A stretch of DNA of 64,000 bases from a virus: positions 26,096-90,095 of the IMG/VR virus record IMGVR_UViG_3300035670_000106. One strand, 5' to 3'. Of the stretch, positions 48,558 through 63,936 are shown in pieces (position 1 is the stretch's first letter; each line of letters starts with the position of its first letter). Below the pieces are notes generated by a model. That model was not told where the DNA came from and ran no database searches. It saw only the letters and a list, made by a program, of their open reading frames with translations. The position numbers and the translations under genes were made by a program.

Positions 48558-48586
48558 ATTATACGCTAATCGAATAAAGAAATCAA
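48558..48586 (-). promoter_or_regulatory. sigma70 promoter between ligase subunits
   Basis: TTGATT-17-TATAAT. Confidence 0.8.
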
Positions 48587-54540: not shown

Positions 54541-55941
54541 TTAGTAATTATACCTAGGAGTCAGTAAAGTCTCTAGCATAATGTTTCTAGGAGAAAATCG
54601 ATCTACTGGAGTACCAAGAATACTTGTCATAATACTTGGTGAGAAGCCAGAAACCAGAGCTACTCCCTGCTCATTTGCAGAGACTGGTACGTTGCCGTAA
54701 GCCTTCAGATTCCAGAACACAATTTGTGGTACTTTATATCCAGCAGTTTCAAAATTCCTACGAATACTTTCTACTGCGGAGTCTCCATATGTTATACACT
54801 CATCAAACTGCATGTCTGAAAAGATCATCAAAACTTCTGGCATTTCTTCTTGAGGTACTTTACCTTGAACTGCAGTATTTAGTACTAGGTTCAAGGCTTT
54901 TACCAGGTTAGTATTAAAACCCCAGGAAGACCCCCTTAGCTGGCTAACCTTCTCATAAATATTACCCCGAAGAATATCAATGGAAGGCTCTTCAGAAAAA
55001 GTAAGGAACATATCCTTAAACTTCCCGGTATTTTTATCAGCGCAATACAGTCCTAAAGAAATAGCTACTTGCATAGCTGTAAGGTTTTTACCTACAGGTG
55101 TCATCATAGAGCCACTAACATCAACCATTGGAAGGATTTTAGCATTTCCAATGTAATTAGGCAGTGCTTCCCACTGAGACTTTATAAAACTAATCTCGGA
55201 GGCACTAGGTTCGATATAGTAACTAAAAAGACTGCGAAGTACCTCGTATGGATAGATAGCACCGGCATTAACCTTGGTTTTCCCCTTAGCCAGTGAATCT
55301 ACATACTTTGTATATAGCTCCGGAGTATGTTTAATAAAAGCAGCACGATAACGAGCAGCAGCAACAGAAGGTACTTTGCTAAACTCTATAGTATCCCAGC
55401 TATGGGCACACATCTGTGTTTCTACAACCTTAGTTAGATTGACTAAGGTTTTGCGATAGACCTTAGGGGACATACCAAGCAGTCCACGAAGCTTGGCCGC
55501 TTCTACCCCCTTACGAGGCATCCATTTAGCACAAAGGCCGTTACCCTCTGCTAGAGCCTGTTTAATTAGGAATGCGGCAAATCTCTTAGCTTCTGCACTT
55601 TTAACAGCAAGCAAGTCATCCCAACGACCCAACTCTGGGATAGCCTTCATTAAGCGTAAAGCATCGTCTAAATTGGCAAATTCAAGCCAATTTAGCATAT
55701 CCCTAAAAAGCTGACGTTCCCCGGCACCTTTTCTAGCGTCTCGTGCCCACAGCATAATACGGTTAGCCAAGTCACGATCTGAAGCATACGCTGCTGCAAA
55801 ATCTGGGACAATATTCTGCCCGCGAGAAGCCCCTACCTTAAAAAAGAGGTCTACGCAAGGATCTGAAGTGCTCTTAAGCGCCCTCATTCCATTCTCGGTA
55901 TAGGTGGTTTGATTGTTTACTGCATTTGCAAAAGTATTCAT
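54541..55941 (-). CDS. DUF2828-family protein: helical N-terminus plus vWA/MIDAS domain (Ro60/TROVE-like architecture)
   Basis: DLFF, ARDARKGAGER, GRWDDLL, AKWMPR, DVSGSM, SDMQFD, FWNL, SGFSP; AAGGA RBS before ATG 55941. Confidence 0.8.
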   Translation of the reverse strand: MNTFANAVNNQTTYTENGMRALKSTSDPCVDLFFKVGASRGQNIVPDFAAAYASDRDLANRIMLWARDARKGAGERQLFRDMLNWLEFANLDDALRLMKAIPELGRWDDLLAVKSAEAKRFAAFLIKQALAEGNGLCAKWMPRKGVEAAKLRGLLGMSPKVYRKTLVNLTKVVETQMCAHSWDTIEFSKVPSVAAARYRAAFIKHTPELYTKYVDSLAKGKTKVNAGAIYPYEVLRSLFSYYIEPSASEISFIKSQWEALPNYIGNAKILPMVDVSGSMMTPVGKNLTAMQVAISLGLYCADKNTGKFKDMFLTFSEEPSIDILRGNIYEKVSQLRGSSWGFNTNLVKALNLVLNTAVQGKVPQEEMPEVLMIFSDMQFDECITYGDSAVESIRRNFETAGYKVPQIVFWNLKAYGNVPVSANEQGVALVSGFSPSIMTSILGTPVDRFSPRNIMLETLLTPRYNY

Positions 55942-55955
55942 TAAATTTTCCTTAA

Positions 55956-56077
55956 CAGATTGAAGAGTATTCACTTTTTCAAGAGTGTATAATAATAATA
56001 TTGCTGAATTCAATCTTATATTCAGAATGGGTTATTTTCGCCAGTGAAATTAATTTTATTTGCTGTAACCATTCTTA
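55956..56077 (-). ncRNA. Tandem pair of CAGCAA stem-loop RNA elements in the DUF2828 gene leader
   Basis: TAAGAATGG-TTACAGCAA...CCATTCTG and TAAGATTGAA-TTCAGCAA...TTCAATCTG, each enclosing a small inner hairpin. Confidence 0.65.
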
Positions 56078-57070: not shown

Positions 57071-57099
57071 ATTATACTCTCATTGATGAGAAAAATCAA
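57071..57099 (-). promoter_or_regulatory. sigma70 promoter
   Basis: TTGATT-17-TATAAT. Confidence 0.75.
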
Positions 57100-60495: not shown

Positions 60496-60786
<291 letters not shown>

Positions 60787-60801: not shown

Positions 60802-60893
60802 TGGTACTCCTGCCCGGACTCGAACCGAGATTAACCAATTATCTGTTGCATACGGGATATAAATCCGCTGTTTTACCATTAAACTACAGGAGC
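60802..60893 (-). tRNA. tRNA-Ile (TAT) with long variable region
   Basis: GCTCCTG/CAGGAGT acceptor, GCGGA-TT-TAT-AT-CCCGT, about 22-nt variable region, TTCGA, CCA end. Confidence 0.75.
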
Positions 60894-61011: not shown

Positions 61012-61089
61012 TGGTACCCTCGGTCGGAGTCGAACCGACACTGTACGGCTTCTAAGACCGTCATCTCTACCAGATTGGATTACGAGGGC
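61012..61089 (-). tRNA. tRNA-Leu (TAG), short variable loop
   Basis: ACGGT-CT-TAG-AA-GCCGT, CCA end. Confidence 0.85.
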
Positions 61090-61298
61090 ATTTACAGTAA
61101 TGTTATCTATTTATGGGTAGTAATAACCCTACTACCGTTTGCTAAATGAAGTCGCTTATTGAAGATTGTAGTATGCGCGCTCTACAATCAGTTTCGCCGT
61201 CACTTCGTCCTTATTTACGCATCTTCCTAGGTATGGTAACATCGAACAGCATTAGGCTGGTGGACACAGCCTTTTTCATAAATAACATTACTGTAAAT
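61090..61298 (-). ncRNA. Structured ncRNA domain closed by a 17-bp perfect stem
   Basis: ATTTACAGTAATGTTAT/ATAACATTACTGTAAAT plus internal hairpins AGGCTG/CAGCCT, GATTGTAG/CTACAATC, GGTAGTA/TACTACC. Confidence 0.55.
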
Positions 61299-61369
61299 TC
61301 GGTTCCGAGAACTTTGTTCCTGCTAGCAGGCATCTCTCCTATATCGGGACATACACCGAAAGGTCTGTC

Positions 61370-61472
61370 ATGGTTTACAGTTGAGCATAGTATCTACAAA
61401 GATTATTTGATAGTTATTTAGACCTATTCGCTCAACCGTTTCGTCGGATTTTCATCGACTCATCAGAACCAT
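61370..61472 (-). ncRNA. Type I hammerhead ribozyme
   Basis: Stem I AUGGUU/AACCAU, CUGAUGA, stem II GUCG/CGAC, GAAA, stem III CGGUUGAGC/GCUCAACUG, GUA cleavage triplet. Confidence 0.88.
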
Positions 61473-61491
61473 TCCTCACTGTATAAATAAT

Positions 61492-61520
61492 ATTATACAG
61501 GGTTTCACTAACATAATCAA
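61492..61520 (-). promoter_or_regulatory. sigma70 promoter driving hammerhead / ncRNA / tRNA transcript
   Basis: TTGATT-17-TATAAT with palindromic -10 region. Confidence 0.8.
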
Positions 61521-61537
61521 GTCAGTAATTTTAAATC

Positions 61538-61628
61538 TGGCGGAAGCAGTAGGATTCGAACCTACGGGACCATTTCTGGCCCGACGGTTTTCAAGACCGT
61601 TGCAATAAACCAACTCTGCCATACTTCC
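61538..61628 (-). tRNA. tRNA-Ser (TGA)
   Basis: ACGGT-CT-TGA-AA-ACCGT, long variable arm, CCA end. Confidence 0.92.
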
Positions 61629-63077: not shown

Positions 63078-63106
63078 ATTATAACACGATGGCTGAAGAA
63101 AATCAA
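63078..63106 (-). promoter_or_regulatory. sigma70 promoter
   Basis: TTGATT-17-TATAAT. Confidence 0.8.
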
Positions 63107-63907: not shown

Positions 63908-63936
63908 ATTATACAGTAAAAGGCTACATGAATCAA
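63908..63936 (-). promoter_or_regulatory. sigma70 promoter with palindromic -10 region
   Basis: TTGATT-17-TATAAT. Confidence 0.8.

What the first reader, a model, noticed from the sequence alone, without database searches (positions are those of the whole stretch)
61370..61520. Complete hammerhead ribozyme at the 5' end of a ncRNA/tRNA transcript
Seen on the - strand: AUGGUU-CUGAUGA-GUCG(AUGAAAAUC)CGAC-GAAA-CGGUUGAGC-(43 nt)-GCUCAACUG-UA/AACCAU. All conserved core nucleotides and all three stems are present; predicted cleavage is between 61376 and 61375. It starts about 13 nt after the predicted start of a consensus promoter (-10 at 61497-61492). Known: hammerhead cleavage yields a 2',3'-cyclic phosphate and a 5'-OH. 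Inference: self-cleavage removes the triphosphate leader, releases an RNA of about 110 nt, and gives the downstream structured RNA and Leu/Leu/Ile tRNA precursor a 5'-OH end. This could be host-independent processing or stabilisation.
Basis: partly seen in the sequence, partly recalled or inferred. Interest (0 to 1): 0.82.

Follow-up and report, generated by a model that had tools for sequence, protein, structure and literature searches.

The report
Promoter-proximal hammerhead ribozyme in phage tRNA cluster
A complete self-cutting hammerhead RNA motif sits right behind an early promoter in the tRNA gene cluster of an uncultured T5-like phage, where it would cut the standard leader off a long folded RNA and three tRNAs; it is a new example of a known ribozyme class, with cutting itself untested.

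Summary
On the - strand at 61472-61370 there is a complete type I hammerhead: all core bases, G10.1-C11.1, stems of 6, 4 and 11 bp, and a predicted cut between 61376 and 61375.

It is not chance. None of 600 shuffled strands gave an equal hit. My estimate is 5e-7 chance hits per window.

The promoter in front of it is real. TTGATT-N17-TATAAT occurs 6 times, always on the - strand, against 0.22 expected. It carries a shared leader that three related phages also use.

Loop II (UGAAAAU) is the modal loop of natural phage hammerheads (18 of 39). The four other viral hammerheads with this 7-nt loop are all type I. Three have an extended stem III, and one also follows a promoter directly.

Against it:
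- No Rfam model reaches threshold.
- No homologue of this element was found.
- The three nearest relatives lack it.
- Our loop-closing pair is A.C.
- A competing downstream helix is predicted.

Most likely it is an active ribozyme that removes the promoter leader from a 286-nt folded RNA plus tRNA precursor. Activity is untested. This scan has noted hammerheads in phage tRNA arrays before, on other DNA.

The parts
61492..61520 (-). Early promoter TTGATT-N17-TATAAT (-35 box at 61520-61515, -10 box at 61497-61492)
   Evidence: A 10 of 12 consensus match. The exact pattern occurs 6 times in the window, all on the - strand, against 0.22 expected, and 0 of 100 shuffles reach 6. Related phage records G003-G005 use the same TATAATATTATT cassette.
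61473..61491 (-). Conserved initial transcribed leader of the promoter cassette (ATTATTTATACAGTGAGGA). GUGAGGR is the ribosome-binding site at the protein-coding copies. The predicted start is at about 61484.
   Evidence: the copies at 63936 and 57099 carry the same leader, followed by ATG 7-9 nt after GAGGG; the first 17 nt recur elsewhere in the genome. The start position is inferred from spacing only.
61370..61472 (-). Type I hammerhead ribozyme motif, 103 nt
61467..61472 (-). Stem I, 5' strand AUGGUU
   Evidence: Pairs with 61375-61370.
61460..61466 (-). Core C3-A9, CUGAUGA
61443..61459 (-). Stem II GUCG/CGAC with loop II AUGAAAAUC. Read in the register of its closest class, this is a 5-bp stem whose loop-closing pair is A.C, with a 7-nt loop UGAAAAU.
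61439..61442 (-). Core G12 A13 A14 A15.1 (GAAA)
61377..61439 (-). Stem III: 11 bp from A15.1-U16.1, closing a 41-nt imperfect extension (span 63 nt)
61375..61376 (-). Predicted cleavage site: after A17 (61376) and before A1.1 (61375), triplet GUA
   Evidence: Follows from the motif geometry. Not tested.
61370..61375 (-). Stem I, 3' strand AACCAU
61301..61307 (-). CGGAACC, predicted to compete with stem I and the core by pairing with GGUUCUG (61470-61464)
   Evidence: Once the transcript reaches about 61300, the minimum-energy fold loses 7 of the 21 hammerhead pairs, by about 5-6 kcal/mol. This is a thermodynamic prediction only, and a 7-bp match of this kind is expected by chance.
61090..61375 (-). 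Predicted 3' cleavage product up to the RNase P site of tRNA-Leu(UAG): a 16-nt tail, a 61-nt three-way domain, and a 209-nt domain closed by a stem of about 21 bp
   Evidence: -78.2 kcal/mol, z -3.48, 0 of 200 shuffles as stable. No Rfam family up to E 10 apart from chance-level rows.
61012..61089 (-). tRNA-Leu(UAG), the first of three tRNAs downstream (Leu-UAA 60901-60983, Ile-UAU 60802-60893)
61538..61628 (-). tRNA-Ser(UGA) upstream. Its 3' end lies 17 nt before the -35 box, so read-through transcripts would also meet the ribozyme.
   Evidence: No terminator-like site lies on the - strand between them.

Best explanation
This is a genuine type I hammerhead ribozyme of the phage lineage marked by a UGAAAAU loop II. 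It is placed directly behind one copy of the phage's standard early promoter-and-leader cassette.

Proposed course of events:
- Transcription starts at about 61484.
- The 103-nt ribozyme folds as soon as it is made and cuts between 61376 and 61375.
- This severs a fragment of about 109 nt that ends in a 2',3'-cyclic phosphate. The fragment holds the triphosphate end, the cassette's Shine-Dalgarno-bearing leader and the ribozyme itself.
- The rest of the transcript then starts with a 5'-OH. It consists of a 286-nt folded non-coding RNA followed by tRNA-Leu, tRNA-Leu and tRNA-Ile.
- RNase P then cuts at 61090/61089. The ribozyme and RNase P together therefore bound a discrete 286-nt RNA.

The ribozyme would work as a natural insulator. 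It makes the downstream non-coding transcript independent of the promoter's translation-type leader, and it gives that transcript a 5'-OH end. From established knowledge of RNase E and RppH, such an end is a poor entry point for 5'-end-dependent decay.

Shown here: the motif, its significance, the promoter, the kinship of loop II, and the existence of one other promoter-proximal member of the same class. Inferred: cleavage, the start site, the fate of the ends, and the benefit.
For: - Complete core and three stems.
- 0 of 600 shuffled strands give an equal hit.
- It is the only hammerhead in the 90-kb record.
- It is the minimum-energy fold of the nascent transcript. 20 of 21 pairs are present for transcripts ending at 61370, 61365 and 61320, and 14 of 21 at 61340.
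- It lies on the same strand as all 17 tRNAs.
- The promoter class is found 6 times against 0.22 expected. It has a shared leader and is conserved in relatives.
- Loop II carries UGAAAAU, a feature that neither the minimal motif nor my search pattern demands. It is found in 18 of 39 natural hammerhead matches, while a random 9-nt loop has it with p about 5e-4.
- A scan for core + N4 + UGAAAAU + N4 + CGAAAC gave 7 viral loci, which are 4 distinct sequences. All 4 fold as type I hammerheads with free-varying, paired stems. Stem II pairs in 24 of 25 cells, with 3 pairs changed on both sides.
- In that class, stem III spans 97, 37, 36 and 16 nt, so our 63-nt stem III is not odd.
- L177 has its stem I 9 nt after a TTGACA-17-CATAAT promoter, which is the same layout as here.
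- Published precedent: in haloviruses HF1/HF2 the mapped 5' end of an early transcript lies within 3 nt of a hammerhead cut site (PMC3088659, passages read).
Against: - No Rfam hammerhead model reaches its gathering score. There is nothing at gathering. RF00008 gives 23 bits against 48.5, covering the core only and misaligned. RF00163 gives 10.8 bits against 34. However, the four clear class members also fail.
- No homologue of this element was found anywhere, so there is no covariation for this locus itself.
- The three nearest relatives found (polymerase 53-63% identical) lack it. In one of them the same promoter runs straight into tRNA-Ile(UAU).
- The pair closing loop II is A.C here, but G-C in 4 of 4 class members.
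- The 5' flank is the cassette leader ending in GA. By my count by eye's table, 16 of 17 natural type I relatives have a flank ending in AA, as do 3 of 4 class members. The usual stem I/loop II contact may therefore be weak.
- A competing helix is predicted to displace stem I about 70 nt later.
- Over the size of the whole scan, my chance estimate is about 0.13, not zero.
Confidence: 0.6

Rival explanations
1. It is a real hammerhead by descent but is slow or inactive in the cell. On this view it is a decaying or hitch-hiking copy brought in with an inserted block (the non-coding RNA plus two tRNA-Leu genes), and it has no role of its own.
For: - It is absent from the three nearest relatives. 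In G003 the homologous promoter abuts tRNA-Ile(UAU) directly, so the block looks like an insertion or a loss.
- There is an A.C mismatch at the pair that closes loop II.
- The 5' flank is atypical.
- A downstream competitor helix is favoured by 5-6 kcal/mol.
Against: - All 11 invariant core bases, A15.1-U16.1, G10.1-C11.1 and H17 are intact, and all three stems pair without a mismatch over 6, 4 and 11 bp. A decaying copy would be expected to lose some of these.
- The nascent transcript folds into the ribozyme before the competitor is made.
Confidence: 0.17
2. The ribozyme serves a small protein gene, as in most members of its lineage. It would trim the 5' untranslated region of a 40-codon frame (61333-61211), which is preceded by AGGAGAG, or of a 10-codon frame that starts 4 nt after the cut.
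For: - Most natural relatives fetched are followed within 20-70 nt by a ribosome-binding site and an ORF.
- In L177 the cut is followed by AUAUAGGAAAGACAAUG. Here AUAUAGGAGAGAUG lies 30-43 nt after the cut.
Against: - Only 2 nt separate GGAG(AG) from the AUG.
- The frame has no homologue among 5.8 billion proteins, not even itself as a called gene, and no PHROG family.
- It runs into a stem of about 21 bp in an RNA domain that folds well beyond shuffles.
Confidence: 0.08
3. The hammerhead is the front module of a larger conserved structured RNA. Earlier notes of this scan describe hammerheads in phage tRNA clusters as parts of a 130-170-nt 'doubly knotted' RNA. On this view the ribozyme's job is to mature that RNA rather than to insulate the transcript.
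For: - The 77 nt after the cut form a small three-way domain, and a 209-nt closed domain follows.
- Earlier notes report such composite RNAs on other DNA. These are leads only.
Against: - The 5' flank here is the promoter cassette's own leader, so the ribozyme cannot be an insert in a loop of a larger RNA.
- I found no look-alike of the downstream RNA in any fetched locus or in cultured phages.
- The one look-alike I noticed (L052) did not survive a pattern scan.
- Look-ups by sequence among earlier findings found nothing outside this genome.
Confidence: 0.1
4. It is a chance match to the hammerhead consensus.
For: - It is a singleton locus.
- Rfam models reject it.
- Scan-wide expectation is about 0.13.
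Against: - 0 of 600 shuffles give an equal hit.
- Loop II matches the modal natural loop, which is independent of the motif definition.
- It sits on the transcribed strand, directly behind a verified promoter.
Confidence: 0.05

Closest known systems
Type I hammerhead ribozymes of phages and prophages (Perreault et al. 2011, PMC3088659, passages read; Rfam RF00163 and clan CL00010)
   Same: The core, the three-stem junction open at stem I, the G10.1-C11.1 pair, a GUH cut site and a phage genome. Loop II carries UGAAAAU, as in 18 of 39 natural matches and as in the four viral members of the 7-nt-loop class.
   Different: - It scores below every Rfam hammerhead threshold.
- Stem III spans 63 nt.
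- An A.C pair closes loop II.
- The 5' flank is a promoter leader rather than the usual A-rich run.
- It lies in a tRNA cluster. Of the 42 hammerhead loci I fetched without regard to tRNAs, 0 have a tRNA within 500 nt.
- The paper describes hammerheads flanking genes in prophages. In its text 'tRNA' occurs once, in the title of a cited paper.
Hammerhead at the start of an early transcript in haloviruses HF1/HF2 ('HHphage', PMC3088659, discussion passage read), and the promoter-proximal member L177 found here
   Same: A hammerhead placed so that its cut makes the working 5' end of a phage early transcript. In L177, stem I begins 9 nt after the -10 box, and stem III carries an even larger insert (97 nt).
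   Different: Both of those precede a protein gene. Here the cut is followed by 286 nt of folded non-coding RNA and three tRNAs.
Theta (minimal HDV-like) ribozymes next to tRNA genes of gut phages (Kienbeck et al. 2024, PMC10879173; passages read)
   Same: A small self-cleaving ribozyme built into a phage tRNA transcript and proposed to reduce dependence on host RNases.
   Different: - It is a different ribozyme class.
- Theta ribozymes abut the tRNA 3' end and are proposed to trim the trailer. This hammerhead lies 66 nt after one tRNA, with a promoter in between, and 286 nt before the next, so it makes no tRNA end.
- The word 'hammerhead' does not occur in that paper.
RiboJ-type synthetic insulators: a hammerhead placed between promoter and gene in engineered circuits. 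This is recalled. I saw it only as a term in search listings.
   Same: A hammerhead right after the transcription start removes the promoter-specific leader and leaves a defined 5'-OH end.
   Different: That is a designed part from a plant satellite RNA, used in front of mRNAs. This would be a natural case in front of non-coding RNA.

Membership tests
Hammerhead ribozyme (any type) | Invariant core: C3 U4 G5 A6 N7 G8 A9, G12 A13 A14, the A15.1-U16.1 pair, and H17 (not G) before the cut | tested here: met
   CUGAUGA at 61466-61460, GAAA at 61442-61439, U16.1 at 61377, A17 at 61376.
Hammerhead ribozyme (any type) | Three helices radiating from the core, with G10.1-C11.1 opening stem II | tested here: met
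   Stems of 6, 4 and 11 uninterrupted pairs. The junction is the minimum-energy fold of the 116-nt stretch and of the nascent transcripts.
Hammerhead ribozyme (any type) | Score at or above the gathering threshold of an Rfam hammerhead covariance model | tested here: not met
   There is no hammerhead hit at gathering. RF00008 scores 23.0 against 48.5 bits and RF00163 scores 10.8 against 34 bits. The four clear relatives L177, L178, L179 and L182 also fail: their best scores are 34 against 48.5 and 33.7 against 56.3, and L178 is not listed at all. The failure therefore says little.
Hammerhead ribozyme (any type) | Tertiary contact between stem I (or its flank) and loop II, needed for fast cutting at cellular Mg2+ | tested here: inconclusive
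   Loop II has the lineage's UGAAAAU. But its closing pair is A.C, and the 5' flank ends in GA rather than the usual AA. A single sequence gives no way to test the contact.
Hammerhead ribozyme (any type) | Conservation with compensatory changes in homologues of the same locus | tested here: inconclusive
   No homologue of the locus was found. Near-identical strains showed no listed difference in 61293-61540, though 14 rows of that table were not shown. Across the non-orthologous class of five, stem II covaries and stems I and III all differ yet pair.
Hammerhead ribozyme (any type) | Site-specific self-cleavage giving 2',3'-cyclic phosphate and 5'-OH ends | not testable with these tools
   No RNA run holds the stretch.
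Type I topology | Stem I open, stems II and III capped by loops | tested here: met
   The order along the strand is stem I 5' strand, core, stem-loop II, GAAA, stem-loop III, UA, stem I 3' strand.
Phage hammerhead class with a 5-bp stem II and 7-nt loop UGAAAAU (defined here) | Matches CUGAUGAG-N4-UGAAAAU-N4-CGAAAC, type I, and all stem II pairs formed | tested here: inconclusive
   It matches the pattern and the topology. Four of its 5 stem II pairs form. The fifth is A.C, where 4 of 4 other members have G-C.
tRNA-fused ribozymes (theta ribozymes, and hammerheads cutting at a tRNA's first base as noted earlier in this scan) | The cut site coincides with, or directly abuts, a tRNA end | tested here: not met
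   The cut is at 61376/61375. The nearest tRNA ends are at 61538 (163 nt upstream) and 61089 (286 nt downstream).

The most novel reading that the evidence does not exclude
The hammerhead is a natural 'insulator' that the phage uses to turn a standard promoter-plus-ribosome-binding-site cassette into a driver of non-coding RNA. It strips off the translatable, triphosphorylated leader. Together with RNase P it carves out a discrete 286-nt RNA with a 5'-OH end. That RNA belongs to no known family and may work with the phage's own RNA-handling proteins, namely the Ro60-like DUF2828 protein 5 kb downstream. If so, this would be a ribozyme-defined end used for small-RNA biogenesis in a bacterial virus.
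Probability: 0.2. Interest if true: 0.65.

Novelty: new member of a known kind. Interest (0 to 1): 0.42.

Why it matters
What bacterial and phage hammerheads are for is still largely open. The 2011 survey could only suggest that they cut long phage transcripts into gene-sized pieces (PMC3088659).

This locus gives an unusually clean test case:
- one promoter of a verified class;
- a ribozyme 12 nt after the start;
- no coding sequence to confound the read-out;
- a second, independent processing site (RNase P) that fixes the other end of the product.

It should run from its own sigma-70-type promoter in a laboratory strain. The effect of a 5'-OH end on the fate of a non-coding RNA could then be measured directly against a core mutant.

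It also shows that Rfam's hammerhead models miss this sub-class. All five members examined fall below threshold. Surveys based on those models therefore undercount phage hammerheads.

Tried and rejected
**Homologues of the locus**
- blastn (distant mode) of 61090-61540 against 50,697 phage records gave no match.
- Relatives sought through neighbouring proteins:
  - SprT-like: none.
  - RNaseH-like: 2 loci, neither with a hammerhead.
  - Ro60-like DUF2828: 41 loci, no hammerhead. The one descriptor hit, in L029, is spurious: an A/U-rich 188-nt 'stem III' inside coding-looking sequence.
  - The 90-aa frame upstream has only one cluster, at 97% identity.
- nhmmer and blastn against all fetched loci matched only the cores I had fetched by pattern.
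- The metagenome scan with the core, stem II and CGG of stem III gave 37 loci. All are unrelated hammerheads.
- Whole records of T5, Vibrio phages KIT04 and Thalassa, and the records behind L007 and L008: core-pattern matches were at the rate of the reversed-pattern control, and none was hammerhead-like.

**The 'knotted RNA' lead from earlier notes**
- I noticed that L052 shares GUGAGGR, then a hairpin, then ACCyUU..UCGG..GUA..CCGAUAUAGG with our flanks.
- A viral scan for TCGG-N0-1-GTA-N3-4-CCGATATAGG gave 5 hits. All look coding and none has a hammerhead.
- GUGAGGR then turned out to be the ribosome-binding site of the promoter cassette. I reject the likeness as chance.
- blastn of the L052 stretch against phages gave no match.

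**Sequencing runs**
- No RNA holder is listed. The 14 runs are all marked 'DNA?'.
- Laying 4 runs showed contigs of near-identical strains from 2 studies across the site. No difference was listed between 61220 and 61567, but 14 rows were not shown, so this says nothing about variation.

**End-healing enzymes**
- RtcB and the Rnl2-type RNA ligase are not found in the 90-kb record, which is 86% complete.
- The Rnl1 family search rang in no control genome, so it is uninformative.

**Other frames and families**
- The + strand frame 61146-61421 and the small - strand frames have no PHROG family.
- Rfam at E up to 10 over 61060-61560 gave only chance-level rows.

**Alignment**
- MAFFT could not align the 3' halves of the five class members because their stem III lengths differ. 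I therefore counted pairs formally for stem II only and read stems I and III from the descriptor table.

**Literature**
- 'hammerhead' + 'phage' + 'tRNA array' returned 6 papers, all CRISPR or engineering texts by their titles and abstracts.
- I found no paper describing a hammerhead in a phage tRNA cluster.
- Supplements were not opened. Perreault's supplementary lists of hammerhead loci might hold such cases.

Full report
**What is there**

- AUGGUU (61472-61467)
- CUGAUGA (61466-61460)
- GUCG-AUGAAAAUC-CGAC (61459-43)
- GAAA (61442-39)
- CGGUUGAGC, then 43 nt, then GCUCAACUG
- UA (61377-76)
- AACCAU (61375-70)

In hammerhead numbering this is C3-A9, G10.1-C11.1, G12-A14, A15.1-U16.1 and A17. 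The scissile bond lies between 61376 and 61375. Stem I is open, so the topology is type I. A descriptor I wrote finds it with uninterrupted stems of 6, 4 and 11 pairs. The 116-nt stretch folds into the three-way junction as its minimum-energy structure.

**Is it more than chance?**

- The descriptor finds one site in the window and one in the whole 90,095-bp viral record, for any of the three topologies.
- Of 600 dinucleotide-shuffled strands, one had a loose hit and none had a hit of this quality.
- From base composition I estimate 5e-7 such hits per window. Over a scan of 250,000 windows that comes to about 0.13, which is small but not zero.

Two features outside the motif definition tip the balance.

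First, loop II contains UGAAAAU. My metagenome pattern left the loop free, yet 18 of its 39 matches carry the same heptamer. A random 9-nt loop would carry it with probability about 5e-4.

Second, the motif lies on the strand of all 17 tRNA genes, directly behind a promoter that I could verify.

**The promoter**

The generic scan alone is not evidence: it gave 8 sites against 6.6 expected. But the exact string TTGATT-N17-TATAAT occurs six times in the window, always on the - strand, against 0.22 expected and 0 of 100 shuffles with six.

Five of the six copies continue with ATTATT. The copies at 61520 and 63936 share ATTATTTATACAGTGAGG. The copy at 57099 also has GUGAGGG, and the copy at 63106 has GAGUGAGA. 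At 63936 and 57099 this GUGAGGG is followed after 7-9 nt by the ATG of a gene, so it is the cassette's ribosome-binding site.

The same TATAATATTATT cassette, with a TTGATT or TTGTTT -35 box, drives genes, tRNAs and apparently non-coding stretches in three related viral records.

The usual spacing puts the start at about 61484, so the ribozyme begins 12 nt into the transcript. It follows the cassette's leader without a gap.

**Relatives**

The phage is a distant T5-like virus.
- Its polymerase is 50% identical to those of Vibrio Demerecviridae.
- It is 63, 58 and 53-57% identical to those of three uncultured records (G004, G003, G005) that I found through the promoter cassette.

None of these three has a hammerhead-like site (descriptor on the fetched parts). 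None has a BLAST match to the ribozyme or to the RNA behind it. In G003 the homologous promoter runs straight into tRNA-Ile(UAU).

The block of ribozyme, 286-nt RNA and two tRNA-Leu genes is thus present in this lineage only, among what I could reach. No other search found a homologue. I therefore have no covariation for the locus itself.

**The ribozyme's own kin**

A viral scan for CUGAUGAG-N4-UGAAAAU-N4-CGAAAC left all stems free. It returned 7 loci holding 4 distinct sequences. All four are type I hammerheads with 5-bp stems I and II.

| Member | Stem III span (nt) | Note |
|---|---|---|
| L177 | 97 | stem I starts 9 nt after the -10 box of TTGACA-17-CATAAT; a ribosome-binding site and ORF follow the cut |
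| L179 | 37 | |
| L182 | 36 | |
| L178 | 16 | |
| this locus | 63 | |

Our 63-nt stem III is therefore ordinary for this class. L177 has the same promoter-proximal layout as here.

Across the five sequences, stem II pairs in 24 of 25 cells, with three pairs changed on both sides. The one unpaired cell is ours, an A.C at the pair that closes the loop.

None of the four reaches an Rfam hammerhead threshold either. This explains why our site fails and makes that failure weak evidence.

**Points against activity**

- The A.C pair noted above.
- The 5' flank ends in GA because it is the cassette leader. Among natural type I relatives with this kind of loop, 16 of 17 end in AA (my count by eye's table), and so do 3 of the 4 class members. 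If that flank makes the stem I/loop II contact, ours may be weaker.
- A competing fold. For transcripts ending at 61370, 61365 and 61320, the minimum-energy fold has 20 of the 21 hammerhead pairs. At 61340 it has 14 of 21. Once CGGAACC (61307-61301) is made, it is predicted to pair with GGUUCUG (61470-64) and displace stem I, by 5-6 kcal/mol. This may be an off-switch, a post-cleavage contact or nothing: a 7-bp match of this kind is expected by chance.

**What it would do**

Cutting gives two products.
- A 5' fragment of about 109 nt: the triphosphate end, the leader with the ribosome-binding site, and the ribozyme, ending in a cyclic phosphate.
- A 3' RNA with a 5'-OH end.

Up to the RNase P site of tRNA-Leu(UAG), the 3' RNA is 286 nt long. 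It folds far better than shuffles (z -3.48). It consists of a 16-nt tail, a 61-nt three-way domain, and a 209-nt domain closed by a stem of about 21 bp that abuts the tRNA. No Rfam family matches it.

The tRNA 5' ends are still RNase P's work, so the ribozyme does not mature the tRNAs. My best reading is a natural insulator. It detaches a translation-type leader from a non-coding transcript and gives that transcript a 5'-OH end. Together with RNase P it bounds a discrete RNA.

Read-through from tRNA-Ser, 17 nt before the -35 box with no terminator-like site between, would be cut at the same place.

The record encodes no RtcB or Rnl2-type ligase, so nothing here suggests that the ends are rejoined.

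**Comparison with what is known**

- Hammerheads in phages and prophages are well known. They are proposed to cut long transcripts into gene-sized pieces. In haloviruses HF1/HF2 a mapped early 5' end lies within 3 nt of a hammerhead cut (PMC3088659, passages).
- Ribozymes tied to phage tRNAs are published for the HDV-like theta class, at tRNA 3' ends (PMC10879173, passages).
- In my searches I found no paper on hammerheads in phage tRNA clusters.
- Among the 42 hammerhead loci I fetched without regard to tRNAs, none has a tRNA within 500 nt.
- Earlier agents of this scan have reported hammerheads in phage tRNA arrays many times on other DNA, often as part of a larger 'knotted' RNA. I treated that as a lead and found no support for it at this locus.

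**Verdict**

This is a new member of a known kind: a type I hammerhead of a phage sub-class that Rfam misses, in an unusual and experimentally convenient position. Cleavage and function remain to be tested.

Noticed in passing
window 48558-48586, 57071-57099, 60715-60743, 61492-61520, 63078-63106, 63908-63936 (- strand): A phage-specific promoter cassette, TTGATT-N17-TATAAT. In five of six copies it continues with ATTATT, and in several with a shared leader ending in GUGAGGR, which serves as the ribosome-binding site. It is found 6 times against 0.22 expected. The same cassette appears in related viral records G003-G005. The copy at 60743 lies inside a 78-codon frame and lacks the leader.
   Followed up: partly
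window 61090-61375 (- strand): The 286-nt RNA between the ribozyme cut and tRNA-Leu folds well beyond shuffles (z -3.48) and matches no Rfam family. A stem of about 21 bp closes 209 nt and ends exactly at the tRNA's first base.
   Followed up: partly
L165 (G003:C1:58619-61649), - strand, between the promoter and tRNA-Leu(UAG): In the related phage G003, about 730 nt between a cassette promoter and tRNA-Leu(UAG) have stops in all three frames and no Rfam match. So a long non-coding stretch before tRNA-Leu(UAG) recurs in this clade, although the sequences are unrelated.
   Followed up: partly
L168 (G003:C1:57520-60573): The related phage G003 carries, inside its tRNA cluster, a permuted tmRNA of the betaproteobacterial type (144 bits) and a group I intron (59.6 bits).
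   Followed up: no
L007 6190-6386: A phage contig that shares the RNaseH-like gene (48% identity) has 26 tRNA genes and a manA RNA (RF01745, 56.4 bits, just over threshold) inside the array.
   Followed up: no
L051-L087 and L177-L183: Natural type I phage hammerheads with a YUGRRAAUUR or UGAAAAU loop II almost always have an A-rich 5' flank ending in AA directly before a 5-6-bp stem I. This is probably the partner of loop II. The four clear members with the 7-nt loop all score below Rfam's hammerhead thresholds.
   Followed up: partly
window 54541-56013 (- strand): The 490-aa protein has DUF7788 and DUF2828 domains. It has relatives in 711 cultured-phage records, some annotated 'RNA-binding protein'.
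   Followed up: no
window 61331-61375 (- strand): Two small frames follow the cut. A 10-codon frame starts 4 nt after it (AUG at 61371-61369). A 40-codon frame starts at 61333, 2 nt after AGGAGAG. Neither has a homologue.
   Followed up: partly
L052 6323-6512: Behind a type III hammerhead in a 169-kb metagenome contig lies a folded stretch sharing CCGAUAUAGG and other short runs with our flank. A pattern scan found only coding-looking hits, so I take the likeness as chance.
   Followed up: yes
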